Source: the human T2T-CHM13v2.0 reference genome, Homo sapiens. From it: a stretch of DNA of 64,000 nucleotides. The position numbers were made by a program, and so were the translations under genes. Below, one piece after another: positions 7,441 through 10,044 of this stretch. The notes under the pieces are model-generated. The model worked only from the letters and a program-made list of their open reading frames with translations, was not told the DNA's origin and searched no databases. Within the stretch, counting starts at the first letter, position 1, and every line of letters starts with the position of its first letter. The DNA lies in NCBI RefSeq assembly GCF_009914755.1, contig NC_060937.1, one strand, 5' to 3'.

Positions 7441-9413
7441 CAGGATTAATATTTTCAGAACTGCATGGCTTTAAAAACATACAAATTTGGGGAAATATAA
7501 GTTACATTAAGGAAGTATCAAATACAATTAAAGCTTAGAAAACCAAAGAGGCCTTAGAACAATTATCTCAGAGAAATGACACATCCAAAGAGGAAAGGAA
7601 AAATTCTAATTGATAGGACAAATATGATTTTAACATCAGAAGATTCTTTCAAAGAGATCATATATCCACATGTGTAATTTTAAGAAAGGTAGGCACAGAT
7701 AAAATCAAAATAACCCCATCTACCTCTAATTATACCAGAAATATCTCAGTTCCTAAATCTGATTTCTTATGGTCTTATGGTTATAGTTACATTTTGCTTT
7801 ATACTCTTCTCCCCATGAGATGCAAGAAATTATATCTATAATTGCATTGTATTGTTGGTATTTACTGCATCAAGTCTTCAATTTACTGAGTAAACTAGCA
7901 AATTAAATGCTAAGCTTCTTTTTTCCAAATAAATATTATTCCATTTACTCCAAATATATCAAATATGCATTCCCACAGGGAAAAAACAAATAGAAAAAAG
8001 TTCCCAGAAAGCTGAGTGGAAATTTGTGATGAGGGAGAAGTTAAAGACTAGCTTCTCCCCATGACAAAAACCTTGTCCTAAGCCATTAGAAACTTGTAGA
8101 ACCAGCAGTTCACTCTTCAAGGTCAACCAAGCATTCTTAATGCTGTTTTGCATTTCTTTTGGCAACAGGCCACTGCATTTTAACATTTGACATACTCCTT
8201 GCCTTTTGCCTAGCCCTGTAAGTAACAGGACGTTTTTCTGTGCCTGGAAATCAATTCTGTTCTCCTCCCATTCTATGACTCAGATAATGAGATACTAGGA
8301 GTCAGTCAACAATCTCACACTTCCACCCTTCACACTGCAACCTGAAAACTGAAACTACAACTGTAACCACAACTAAAGTTGTACTGCAACCTGAAAGCTG
8401 TAACTTCCATGTTAATATAAAACAATTCCTATTTTTAAAGTCTATAAATTAACATTTTTTGCTTTATTTGAAATGAAAAAAATTAAATTTTATTTATTTT
8501 AGAGAAGAATGAATTAAAATACAAATAGTATAAGAAGAACAAATTAAAATGAAAAATCAACCAAGTTTTAGCAGGTTGATATATATTCAGCATTGTGGAA
8601 AACTCTCTGAAGATATTTCTGTCTTAATGTTTAGTATTTTAGGAGCTCTTCCTCTGTGTAAGGTATGGTAATTGGTGTCATGAGGAAGATAGAAGAAATG
8701 TCTCTGCCACATGAAATATATAATCTAATTGAAGAAACAAAACCATTGAAAGGTTTTTAAGTTGCACGGCACAACAGAATTATATTCTCGGAAGTAGAGG
8801 ACTTGTTAAATGAATGGGACAGGCAAAAAATACTAATTCAGAGTTATAATTAAGAGCACACAGCATCACTTGGGCTGGACTGAATTTGGAAGGCTTCACA
8901 AAGAAAGGACTTGCACTGTGACTTGAATGATGGATGGGATTTATGGAGGCAGAGAGAAAGGAGTGCATTTCACGCCAGCAAAATTGGTTTAAGCAAAAGC
9001 ATAAAATTAGAAAAGTTCAAGGCAGGTTAGGGCAGAGTTTAGCTGGAGTACAAAGCCAGGGAAGTGAATAGTTAGAGCTGTCTGCAAAGGTTGCAGTGAT
9101 GGTCAAGGTCTTACACTGTCAGAATAAGCCATTTGGACTTCTGGTAGGCTGTGGGGAGTCACTGAAGTCTTCAAGTAGGAGAATGACAAGATTGAAGGAG
9201 TGCTTTATGACCAACTTGTCAGCAATATGAATGATGAATTGGCAAAAAAAGAGACTACAAGTAGGATGAATAATTAAAATTAAAAAGCTTCTATAATAGG
9301 AGAAATGGGGAAGATGATAAGAAGCTCAGCAAGAAAGTTGGTACCAGTAGAAGGGAGGATCAGGGAAAGAAATGGAATCAGGAAACATTTGTGTGATGGT
9401 GGATTTTGTTTTT

Positions 9414-9669
9414 GGCATTCTTGAAGAGTTTATTTGGGCAGACCCAGGGTGAGGAGGGCCCTGCACCTAGAAGAAGGTGTTGGATCTCTTGGTGGTGGAG
9501 TGTAGCTTGTGCTGGCGATGTGGGACCCAGTAGGACAGTGGGAACTTAATCTTGGATTTATGGAACTGCTTGGTGGGTAGCCAATGGCACTTGCTAGCCA
9601 AGATCTCTTCCACCTTCATGATCTGAATCTAGGGGACCCAGGTACAGTGTCGGGCACCCATTTCTTGGT
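9414..9669 (-). pseudogene. RPL18A: RPL18A retro-pseudogene fragment (last two exons spliced, plus 3'UTR)
   Basis: Minus strand translates [65 protein letters not shown], versus eL20 [66 protein letters not shown]. Stop at 9467-9469, AATAAA at 9429-9434, internal stop at 9629-9631, no indels. Confidence 0.95.
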
Positions 9670-9858
9670 CTGTAGAATGGGGAGGGGACAAGATTACAGC
9701 ATTCATTAGGTTCTGGGCATTTGGCAAACCTATCAAGTGCCTGCCCAATGACCTGGCACATCCTGTCAGGCACAGCAATTGCCTGAGGACCCCAACTTGG
9801 GGCTGACTTGGGGACTAAGTGGCTGCAGCTGCTGGTCCCAGCAGGAACTTGCCACGAG
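9670..9858 (-). pseudogene. Retained 3' part of the RPL18A snoRNA-hosting intron within the retrocopy
   Basis: GC-rich segment between the snoRNA and the exon, ending in acceptor tcccctccccattctacag|ACCAAG exactly at the exon start. Confidence 0.8.
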
Positions 9859-9923
9859 GGGTATAAAACCTCCAAATTCACTTTAAGGGGCATGACCACA
9901 GCTCTCTAAAGGTGATGAGATCC
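9859..9923 (-). ncRNA. SNORA68: SNORA68 (U68) H/ACA snoRNA retrocopy, 3' hairpin only, probably non-functional
   Basis: Minus strand ggatctcatcacctttagagagctgtggtcatgccccttaaagtgaatttggaggttttataccc matches the recalled SNORA68 3' half GGATCTTGTCGCCTTTGGGGGGCTGTGGCCGTGCCCCTCAAAGTGAATTTGGAGGTTCCACAACT; SNORA68 is hosted by RPL18A. Confidence 0.88.
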
Positions 9924-10044
9924 TTCAATAGACATTGTGAAGAAATAATTGACAAACAATGGTGACTGGTAAGATCTAGGAGGCAAAGAACAACCATGAC
10001 ATCAAACTTTAGAACTGGAATGACTAAGACAGCGTCTTACATTT

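What the first reader, a model, noticed from the sequence alone, without database searches (positions are those of the whole stretch)
9378..9939. Retrocopy of a half-processed snoRNA-host RNA: SNORA68 + intron + spliced RPL18A exons + poly(A)
Seen on the minus strand, 5' to 3': SNORA68 3' hairpin (9923-9859), ~190 nt of intron ending in an intact acceptor (ttctacag, AG at 9671-9670), a 110-nt exon (9669-9560), 93 nt of last-exon CDS joined with no intron (9559-9467), 3'UTR with AATAAA, and a decayed poly(A) (~9413-9394). Degenerate TSDs flank it (tcaggaaacatttgtg 9378-9393 / tcaatagacattgtg 9925-9939) inside an L2. Established: SNORA68 lies in an RPL18A intron, and the 110/93 nt sizes agree with my recollection of RPL18A exons 4 and 5. 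Inference: L1 machinery copied a polyadenylated RNA in which the last intron was removed but the snoRNA intron was not. That RNA was either an intron-retained pre-mRNA or a snoRNA-capped poly(A) RNA (SPA-like or snoRNA-retaining transcript). This is a genomic fossil of splicing order and of an RNA species present in the germline. SnoRNA retroposons carrying host exons are a described class; I do not know whether this copy is annotated as such.
Basis: partly seen in the sequence, partly recalled or inferred. Interest (0 to 1): 0.85.

Follow-up and report, generated by a model that had tools for sequence, protein, structure and literature searches.

The report
Old truncated SNORA68–RPL18A snoRNA retroposon
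This is a decayed retrocopy of a partly processed RPL18A transcript (half of snoRNA SNORA68, the rest of its intron, two spliced exons and a poly(A) tail), an ordinary member of a class of snoRNA retroposons described in 2006.

Summary
On the minus strand, window 9923-9561 aligns in one collinear piece to the RPL18A locus on chr19: SNORA68 3' hairpin, the rest of intron 3 and exon 4. Window 9556-9426 aligns to the last exon. The parent's 143-nt intron 4 is missing exactly at the exon junction.

This is a "Type-3 snoRNA retroposon" as defined by Weber 2006 (PMC1687206), in a 5'-truncated form. The 5' hairpin and H box are absent, ACA has become ATA, and exon 4 has an in-frame stop.

The genome holds at least three sister copies with the same architecture, on chrX, chr17 and chr8, each with different flanks. 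Two of them start 1-3 nt from the snoRNA's 5' end. No copy carries the upstream half of the intron. This favours a source RNA that was snoRNA-ended at 5' and polyadenylated at 3', which is the mechanism already proposed in 2006.

- The target-site duplication is real but has two possible registers.
- The "inside an L2" claim could not be tested.
- The "splicing order" inference is weak.

Verdict: a new member of a known kind, of low interest. Side result: truncated SNORA70/RPL10 copies start non-randomly, 9 of 11 at positions 39-58.

The parts
9925..9939 (-). Candidate 5' target-site duplication (register A), abutting the start of SNORA68 homology
   Evidence: It aligns with 9393-9378 at 12 matches in 16 columns. 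An anchored score this high is reached by 0.065% of 20,000 random place pairs. The register is ambiguous.
9940..9964 (-). Alternative 5' direct repeat (register B), or a pre-existing tandem unit of the target site
   Evidence: It aligns with 9393-9367 at 19 matches in 27 columns, local score 10. That score is reached by 3.7% of 3000 random place pairs.
9859..9923 (-). SNORA68 3' hairpin and tail; the ACA box is mutated to ATA at 9864-9862; the 5' hairpin and H box are missing
   Evidence: Rfam RF00263 scores 50.4 bits, with model 69-133 aligned well. Identity to parent L011 4243-4307 is 78.5%. The upstream 9924-9995 is not similar to the 5' hairpin. The fold is no better than shuffles, z +0.60.
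9670..9858 (-). Part of RPL18A intron 3 downstream of SNORA68, up to the intact acceptor AG (9671-9670)
   Evidence: 189 nt against 197 nt in the parent (L011 4308-4504), 68.3% identity, within one collinear HSP of E 5e-56.
9560..9669 (-). RPL18A exon 4 (110 nt, no indels), with one in-frame stop
   Evidence: It aligns to L011 4505-4614 at 76.4% identity.
9467..9559 (-). RPL18A exon 5 coding part (93 nt including stop TAG 9469-9467), joined to exon 4 without the parent's 143-nt intron 4
   Evidence: It aligns to L011 4758-4850 at 81.7% identity. The parent intron 4615-4757 is a clean gap in all four copies.
9414..9466 (-). RPL18A 3'UTR with AATAAA at 9434-9429
   Evidence: Alignment to the parent and to processed pseudogenes; sequence.
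9394..9413 (-). Decayed poly(A) tail
   Evidence: 12 A of 20. It begins where the parent and the pseudogene alignments end.
9378..9393 (-). Candidate 3' target-site duplication; both registers start at 9393

Best explanation
Window 9394-9924 (minus strand) is an ancient, inactive, 5'-truncated Type-3 snoRNA retroposon of SNORA68/RPL18A.

**Shown.** The insert is a DNA copy of an RNA from the chr19 RPL18A gene. That RNA contained the 3' half of SNORA68, all of intron 3 downstream of the snoRNA, exon 4 spliced precisely to exon 5, the 3'UTR and a poly(A) tail added at the gene's own poly(A) site.

**Inferred from established knowledge.** It was inserted by L1 target-primed reverse transcription, which primes on the poly(A) tail and leaves a direct repeat of the target.

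**Inferred from sister copies and the literature.** The template was most likely not a full-length intron-retaining mRNA. More probably it was an RNA whose 5' part had been removed by cleavage and 5'-to-3' exonuclease trimming, which stops at the H/ACA snoRNP, while the 3' part was spliced and polyadenylated normally. Weber proposed this route in 2006. It is the same kind of RNA as the later-described 5' snoRNA-ended, 3' polyadenylated (SPA/cSPA) RNAs.

**This copy.** It starts in the hinge of the snoRNA, at position about 66-69 of 133. Either reverse transcription stopped early, or the RNA was protected only by the 3'-hairpin half of the snoRNP.

**State today.** It has no function as a snoRNA or as a gene. 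The H box and 5' hairpin are missing, ACA has become ATA, and the coding remnant is an exon 4-5 fragment with a stop.
For: **Origin from RPL18A.**
- The window aligns collinearly to the parent locus across the snoRNA 3' hairpin, intron 3 and exon 4 (72.0% over 379 columns, E 5e-56) and across exon 5 (82.6%, E 8e-34). The only gap equals the parent's 143-nt intron 4.
- The parent locus carries a full SNORA68 (150.2 bits) in intron 3.
- The parent's spliced exons encode a 176-aa protein that matches Pfam Ribosomal_L18A (E 4.6e-25).
- The A-rich tail starts at the mRNA poly(A) site, 16 nt after AATAAA.
- GC content rises from about 0.25-0.45 in the flanks to 0.45-0.63 inside the insert.
- Direct repeats flank the insert.

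**Sister copies.**
- Three further copies have the same architecture and the same exact loss of intron 4: chrX L002, chr17 L003 and chr8 L004.
- Similarity between copies stops at the insert ends.
- chr17 has a clear target-site duplication abutting the snoRNA start and the tail.
- chrX and chr17 carry full SNORA68 (106.7 and 94 bits). Their homology begins at parent +2 to +4.
- All 5 SNORA68-like places outside the parent that one search found start at or after the snoRNA 5' end.
- The 364-nt upstream half of intron 3 matches nothing but the parent: 1 match of 1, the parent itself.

**Independent copies of an old gene state.**
- In exons, each copy is on the whole closer to the parent (K2P 0.14-0.39) than to the other copies (0.20-0.54), though the ranges overlap. 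The exception is exon 5 plus 3'UTR: chr17 is 0.257 from the parent but 0.253 and 0.254 from the chr13 and chr8 copies.
- In the intron the reverse holds.
- The 3'UTR states shared by all four copies are also in an old ordinary processed pseudogene, L009.

**Literature.**
- Weber 2006 gives the class definition, the statement that truncated versions occur, and the cleavage-plus-trimming mechanism (PMC1687206, passages).
- Luo and Li report that 39 (19%) of the H/ACA RNA-related retrogenes are 5'-shortened (PMC1802619, passage).
- A 2022 paper describes cSPA RNAs and dyskerin-bound 3' fragments of snoRNA-retaining transcripts (PMC9394076, passages).
Against: - The window copy itself does not start at the snoRNA 5' end, so on its own it cannot tell a snoRNA-ended template from a longer one.
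- The target-site duplication has two registers. In register B, 15 nt at the 5' end of the insert would be unexplained.
- The sequence before the candidate duplication is only a weak match to the L1 endonuclease site, as judged by eye. The TT/AAAA consensus is cited in PMC1802619.
- No outgroup genome or repeat library was available. An empty site, the insertion date and the L2 context are therefore not shown.
- The genome search scores only the best candidates, so the count of four copies is a lower bound. The absence of copies with upstream intron rests on a search whose sensitivity at about 70% identity is inferred, not measured.
Confidence: 0.9

Rival explanations
1. The template was a full-length, capped RPL18A mRNA isoform that retained intron 3 (a snoRNA-retaining transcript). 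The L1 reverse transcriptase simply stopped early, here inside the snoRNA.
For: - The window copy (start about +66-69) and the chr8 copy (start about 11 nt after the snoRNA) do begin at internal positions.
- 5' truncation is common in L1-mediated copies. 39 (19%) of the H/ACA RNA-related retrogenes are 5'-shortened (PMC1802619, passage).
- snoRNA-retaining transcripts exist in human cells (PMC9394076 passages; PMC12152556 abstract).
Against: - Neither of the two other Type-3 copies with snoRNA sequence, nor any other of the 5 SNORA68-like places outside the parent, extends upstream of the snoRNA.
- The upstream 364 nt of intron 3 has no match in the genome other than the parent itself.
- Two of the 4 copies begin 1-3 nt from the snoRNA 5' end. 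This is very unlikely for random stops along an RNA of about 1.3 kb.
- In the SNORA70/RPL10 family, 17 of 28 intron-bearing copies start within 5 nt of the snoRNA 5' end.
Confidence: 0.2
2. There are two unrelated neighbouring elements, as the annotation lists them: a SNORA68-like pseudogene (9859-9968) and a separate RPL18A processed pseudogene (9414-9669).
For: RefSeq lists them as two features, LOC124900340 and RPL18AP17 (hub annotation). The Rfam match coordinates equal the first feature.
Against: - The 189 nt between the two features are the RPL18A intron 3 sequence in the parental order and orientation, inside one collinear HSP.
- Three sister copies show the same joint structure.
- There is only one poly(A) tail.
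Confidence: 0.01
3. A DNA-level (segmental) duplication of part of the RPL18A gene, with later deletion of intron 4.
For: None specific. The intron sequence is present.
Against: - Intron 4 is lost exactly at the splice junction in all four copies.
- The tail is A-rich and sits at the poly(A) site.
- The flanks share no similarity with the parent locus or with the other copies.
Confidence: 0.01

Closest known systems
Type-3 snoRNA retroposons (snoRTs) of Weber 2006, PLoS Genet 2:e205 (PMC1687206), for example SNORA70 (U70)/RPL10
   Same: snoRNA sequence at the 5' end, the entire downstream intron of the host gene, processed downstream exons, a poly(A) tail at the host gene's poly(A) site and flanking direct repeats. 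Truncated snoRNA versions are explicitly included in the class.
   Different: - A different snoRNA and host pair (SNORA68/RPL18A), which is not named in that paper's main text: 0 occurrences of U68, SNORA68 or RPL18A. Its supplements were not read.
- It is old and strongly decayed.
- Only the 3' hairpin of the snoRNA is present.
H/ACA snoRNA retrogenes from partially processed, exon-containing hnRNAs (Luo and Li 2006, NAR 35:559, PMC1802619)
   Same: The same phenomenon, with L1 hallmarks and frequent 5' truncation.
   Different: Their table lists only U68b (chr19), U68c (chr5) and U68d (chrX) (passage). The chr13 copy of this window and the chr17 and chr8 sister copies are not in that listing.
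SPA / cSPA RNAs (5' snoRNA-ended, 3' polyadenylated RNAs) and dyskerin-bound 3' fragments of snoRNA-retaining transcripts (PMC9394076, passages; the original SPA lncRNA work is recalled and was not read here)
   Same: The inferred template has the same end structure: a snoRNP-defined 5' end and an mRNA-type 3' end.
   Different: - Here only a DNA fossil is seen; no RNA data were examined.
- RPL18A and SNORA68 are not mentioned in that paper's main text.
- The 5' RACE in that paper placed the EIF4A1 fragment's end in the preceding exon, not at the snoRNA.
Ordinary RPL18A processed pseudogenes (for example L006-L010)
   Same: The same exon 4/5 junction, 3'UTR and poly(A) site.
   Different: They carry exons 1-3 and no intron. 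The window copy has intron 3 sequence and snoRNA in place of exons 1-3.

Membership tests
Type-3 snoRNA retroposon (Weber 2006) | snoRNA-derived sequence at the 5' end of the insert (full or truncated) | tested here: met
   Rfam SNORA68 scores 50.4 bits against a gathering score of 43. The 3' hairpin is 78.5% identical to the parent. The 5' hairpin is absent, so this is the truncated form.
Type-3 snoRNA retroposon (Weber 2006) | Entire intron sequence downstream of the snoRNA from the parental host gene | tested here: met
   Window 9858-9670 (189 nt) aligns to L011 4308-4504 (197 nt) up to the acceptor AG, within one HSP of E 5e-56.
Type-3 snoRNA retroposon (Weber 2006) | Fully processed downstream exons | tested here: met
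   Exons 4 and 5 are joined exactly. The parent's 143-nt GT..AG intron 4 is absent.
Type-3 snoRNA retroposon (Weber 2006) | Poly(A) tail at the host gene's polyadenylation site | tested here: met
   AATAAA lies at 9434-9429. The A-rich remnant at 9413-9394 has 12 A of 20. It is short and decayed.
Type-3 snoRNA retroposon (Weber 2006) | Target-site duplication bracketing the insert | tested here: inconclusive
   Direct repeats exist and beat the random expectation: anchored 0.065% of 20,000 pairs, unanchored 3.7% of 3000 pairs. Two registers are possible.
Type-3 snoRNA retroposon (Weber 2006) | Insert absent from the orthologous site of an outgroup species | not testable with these tools
   No other mammalian genome is held. 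Both flanks hit only themselves in the genome searched.
Functional box H/ACA snoRNA (SNORA68, RF00263) | Hairpin-hinge (H box)-hairpin-ACA architecture | tested here: not met
   There is no 5' hairpin or H box. ACA is replaced by ATA at 9864-9862. The remnant folds no better than shuffles: z +0.60, with 143 of 200 shuffles folding at least as well.
RPL18A processed pseudogene | Spliced RPL18A exons with a disabled reading frame | tested here: met
   Only exons 4 and 5 are present. The frame is kept, but there is one in-frame stop at codon 13 (compared with the 176-aa ORF).
Copy of a 5' snoRNA-ended, 3' polyadenylated (SPA-like) RNA | Insert begins at the mature 5' end of the snoRNA | tested here: not met
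   The window copy begins at about +66-69. The feature is met in 2 of the 4 family members, chrX and chr17, which start at +2 to +4. The RNA itself cannot be tested here.
   No repeat library is available. The flanks found no other copy in the genome search or in the fetched loci.

The most novel reading that the evidence does not exclude
Truncated Type-3 snoRNA retroposons may not be random products of early stops by reverse transcriptase. The chr13 SNORA68 copy starts in the hinge, at the foot of the 3' hairpin. In the large SNORA70/RPL10 family, 9 of 11 independent partial copies start at snoRNA positions 39-58, which is the 3' strand of the 5' hairpin and the hinge. None of 200,000 uniform simulations reached that clustering. 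These starts could record a second class of defined germline RNA 5' ends: poly(A) RNAs protected only by the 3'-hairpin half of the H/ACA RNP. Alternatively they could record a position-specific block of L1 reverse transcription by the 5' hairpin RNP. I found no paper that addresses this (search: 2 papers held all six terms, neither on this topic judging by title and abstract).
Probability: 0.3. Interest if true: 0.45.

Novelty: new member of a known kind. Interest (0 to 1): 0.22.

Why it matters
It matters little as biology and somewhat as annotation.

**Annotation.** RefSeq lists the element as two unrelated pseudogenes. The snoRNA feature is also over-extended by about 45 nt into non-homologous flank. 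The two features are really one retroposon.

**Catalogue.** Together with the three sister copies, this adds a SNORA68/RPL18A family to the catalogue of Type-3 snoRNA retroposons. Such copies are fossils showing that RNAs with a snoRNA-defined 5' end and an mRNA-type 3' end existed in the germline tens of millions of years ago. That was already concluded in 2006.

**Open thread.** The only new lead is the non-random start position of truncated copies.

Tried and rejected
- **L2 context.** Genome searches with each flank (one search was unanswered and repeated) and a local BLAST against the rest of the window and all loci found nothing but the flanks themselves. The claim stays open.
- **5' hairpin in 9924-9968.** This is what the RefSeq/cmsearch span 9859-9968 implies. 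I rejected it, because the similarity is at or below shuffle level. The Rfam alignment there is a forced global alignment with 48 model positions replaced by 28.
- **A mutated master retrocopy as the source of all four copies.** I rejected this for two reasons. Exon distances are on the whole smaller to the parent than between copies. The shared 3'UTR states also occur in an old ordinary processed pseudogene, or sit in CpG contexts.
- **Further family members.** A search with the chr17 copy's intron found none: 3 matches of 3 were already known, and chr8 was missed at that sensitivity.
- **Structure of the snoRNA remnant.** Folding shows no excess stability.
- **Literature on this locus.** 'RPL18AP17' appears in 0 papers. 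SNORA68 and RPL18A are not mentioned in the main text of PMC9394076 or PMC12152556.
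Full report
**What is in the sequence**

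Read on the minus strand, the stretch contains the following, in order:
- a SNORA68-like 3' hairpin and tail (9923-9859);
- 189 nt ending in ...ttctacAG (AG at 9671-9670);
- 110 nt matching an RPL18A exon (9669-9560);
- 93 nt of last-exon coding sequence ending in TAG (9559-9467);
- a 3'UTR with AATAAA (9434-9429);
- an A-rich remnant (9413-9394, 12 A of 20).

Rfam's SNORA68 model matches 9968..9859 at 50.4 bits (gathering score 43). Only model positions 69-133 are aligned convincingly. In the 5' part, 48 model positions are replaced by 28 unrelated bases. The ACA box reads ATA (9864-9862).

**Test against the parent gene**

The window's own assembly could be searched.
- The query 9394-9968 hit chr19 in two collinear pieces.
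- I fetched the locus as L011. Its exon map came from fully processed RPL18A pseudogenes that align exon by exon and from the splice-site sequences:
  - exon 3: L011 3676-3810;
  - intron 3: 3811-4504;
  - exon 4: 4505-4614 (110 nt);
  - intron 4: 4615-4757 (143 nt, GT..AG);
  - exon 5: from 4758.
- A full SNORA68 (150.2 bits) lies at L011 4175-4307, inside intron 3.
- The spliced exons encode a 176-aa protein that matches Pfam Ribosomal_L18A (E 4.6e-25).
- Window 9923-9561 aligns to L011 4243-4613 (72.0% over 379 columns, E 5e-56).
- Window 9556-9426 aligns to L011 4761-4888 (82.6%, E 8e-34).

I tested both, and neither occurred.

Identity to the parent, segment by segment:

| Segment | Identity |
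|---|---|
| snoRNA 3' hairpin | 78.5% |
| intron | 68.3% |
| exon 4 | 76.4% |
| exon 5 coding part | 81.7% |
| 3'UTR | 75.5% |

**The 5' end**

- Window 9924-9995 is no more similar to the SNORA68 5' hairpin plus H box than shuffled versions are. Against the parent, chrX and chr17 copies, 968, 330 and 824 of 1000 shuffles respectively reach the observed score.
- The copy is therefore 5'-truncated at about snoRNA position 66-69. That is between the H box (model 60-65) and the foot of the 3' hairpin (model 69).
- The RefSeq/cmsearch feature 9859-9968 over-extends into the flank by about 45 nt.
- The remnant hairpin folds no better than shuffles (z +0.60).
- The exon 4-5 remnant keeps the frame but has one in-frame stop.

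**Flanking repeats**

Only 0.065% of 20,000 random place pairs with the same geometry reach that anchored score. The boundaries were chosen after looking, which weakens that figure.
- A second register exists: 9964-9940 against 9393-9367, 19 matches in 27 columns. Its unanchored score is reached by 3.7% of 3000 random pairs.
- Register A explains all three similarities if the target already held a tandem unit of about 25 nt. This is my inference. Register B leaves 15 nt at the insert's 5' end unexplained. Only an empty orthologous site or a repeat consensus can decide between them.
- The GC profile steps up inside 9420-9870, as expected for a chr19-derived insert in AT-rich DNA.
- The 'inside an L2' claim could not be tested.

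**Sister copies**

The same searches found three more copies with the same architecture: chrX (L002), chr17 (L003) and chr8 (L004).
- In the five-way alignment, all four retrocopies lack intron 4 exactly. All carry the downstream part of intron 3 and end in A-rich tails just after AATAAA.
- Similarity between copies ends at the insert borders.
- chr17 has a clear target-site duplication abutting the snoRNA start and the tail. The chrX duplication is plausible but of low complexity. The chr8 one is unclear.
- chrX and chr17 carry full-length SNORA68 (106.7 and 94 bits), and their homology to the parent begins at +2 to +4 of the snoRNA.
- chr8 begins about 11 nt after the snoRNA.

A search with the snoRNA plus 75 nt of upstream intron plus the downstream intron found 6 places: the parent, chrX, chr17, chr13 and two snoRNA-only copies on chr19 and chr5. 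None of the 5 non-parent places extends upstream of the snoRNA. The 364-nt upstream half of intron 3 matches only the parent. These searches score only the best candidates, so the counts are lower bounds.

**Independent old copies, not copies of a copy**

- In exons, each copy is on the whole closer to the parent (K2P 0.14-0.39) than to the other copies (0.20-0.54). The ranges overlap.
- The exception is exon 5 plus 3'UTR. There chr17 is 0.257 from the parent but 0.253 and 0.254 from the chr13 and chr8 copies.
- In the intron, the copies are closer to each other (0.29-0.48) than to the modern parent (0.39-0.67).
- This is the pattern expected for separate copies of an ancestral gene whose exons stayed constrained while its intron drifted.
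- The 3'UTR states shared by all four are also present in an old ordinary processed pseudogene (L009). Most other shared differences sit in CpG contexts.
- With a recalled neutral rate of about 2e-9 per site per year, K2P of 0.23-0.30 suggests an age of the order of 100 million years. This is a rough inference, inflated by CpG decay.

**Mechanism**

- Shown: the template RNA contained intron 3 downstream of the snoRNA, had intron 4 spliced out and was polyadenylated at the gene's own site.
- Inferred from the L1 model: it was copied by target-primed reverse transcription.
- Which RNA was it? The family pattern has two starts at the snoRNA 5' end, two further downstream and none upstream. This argues for an RNA whose 5' end was set by the snoRNP.
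- RNAs of this form are now known as cSPA RNAs, and dyskerin-bound 3' fragments of snoRNA-retaining transcripts have been described (PMC9394076, passages).
- Such an RNA has no 5' splice site for intron 3. The copy is therefore weak evidence about splicing order.
- For the window copy itself, the mid-snoRNA start may be an early stop of reverse transcription. Weber says truncated versions presumably result from arrest of the reverse transcriptase, and Luo and Li count 39 (19%) 5'-shortened H/ACA retrogenes. It may instead be a real RNA end. I cannot tell which.

**Comparison with what is known**

- The element meets the defining features of a Type-3 snoRT (see the membership table), in its truncated form.
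- In Weber's example family, 30 of 42 human RPL10 pseudogenes are Type-3 U70 snoRTs, 12 of them with a partial snoRNA (passage).
- Luo and Li's table lists U68b (chr19), U68c (chr5) and U68d (chrX) only (passage). The chr13, chr17 and chr8 copies are not listed there.
- Weber's main text does not mention U68, SNORA68 or RPL18A. Neither paper's supplements were read, and they may list more copies.
- 'RPL18AP17' occurs in no paper of the library.
- Verdict: a new member of a known kind.

**Side analysis: where truncated copies start**

To see whether mid-snoRNA starts are a pattern, I examined the SNORA70/RPL10 family in this genome.
- With the parent stretch L024:1400-1846 as query (snoRNA +1 is query position 102), one search returned 40 matches:
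  - the parent;
  - 28 copies carrying snoRNA or intron sequence;
  - 8 ordinary pseudogenes starting exactly at the exon boundary;
  - 3 others.
- Of the 28, 17 start within 5 nt of the snoRNA 5' end.
- The other 11 start at snoRNA positions 26, 39, 43, 43, 47, 47, 48, 55, 57, 58 and 86.
- Nine of those 11 lie in positions 39-58. Per the structure, that is the 3' strand of the 5' hairpin and the hinge before the H box.
- The flanks of the 8 partial copies I inspected all differ, so these are independent insertions. I did not inspect the flanks of the other 3.
- A scan-statistic simulation reached 9 of 11 in a 20-nt window in 0 of 200,000 trials (uniform over positions 7-181) and in 10 of 200,000 (uniform over 7-135).
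- Truncated copies therefore do not start at random. Whether this reflects a block to reverse transcriptase at the 5' hairpin or real RNA ends is open.
- One literature search on this returned 2 papers, neither on this topic judging by title and abstract.

**Verdict**

- The feature is an ordinary, decayed Type-3 snoRNA retroposon, annotated in RefSeq as two separate pseudogenes.
- Interest is low (0.22).
- The most novel reading still open is that the start positions of truncated copies carry information about RNA ends or about snoRNP blocks to L1 reverse transcription.

Noticed in passing
window 3246-3311 (-), tail to about 3200: A SNORD37-like box C/D snoRNA copy (Rfam RF00440, 56.9 bits against a gathering score of 45) is followed directly by an A-rich tract. 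It looks like a Type-1 snoRNA retroposon about 6 kb from the SNORA68 element. The target-site duplication and the parent gene were not examined.
   Followed up: partly
L024 (G000 C23:152635301-152638435) and loci L055-L083: In the SNORA70/RPL10 Type-3 family, 17 of 28 intron-bearing copies start within 5 nt of the snoRNA 5' end. Nine of the 11 partial copies start at snoRNA positions 39-58. None of 200,000 uniform simulations reached this clustering.
   Followed up: yes
L002 1431-1985 (chrX), L003 1360-1905 (chr17), L004 reverse strand about 1500-1935 (chr8): Three sister SNORA68/RPL18A Type-3 retroposons. The chr17 and chr8 copies are not in the U68 entries of the Luo and Li 2006 table. The chrX copy has internal deletions in exon 4, and its tail has become a GAAA-type microsatellite.
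   Followed up: partly
window 9859-9968 (RefSeq LOC124900340): The annotated SNORA68-like pseudogene span equals a forced global covariance-model alignment. Its 5' portion of about 45 nt (9924-9968) is not homologous to SNORA68.
   Followed up: yes
L011 4308-4504 against the four retrocopies: The modern parent intron differs from all four old copies by an 8-nt indel, and it is more distant from each copy than the copies are from each other. This suggests fast evolution of the chr19 intron since the copies were made.
   Followed up: partly
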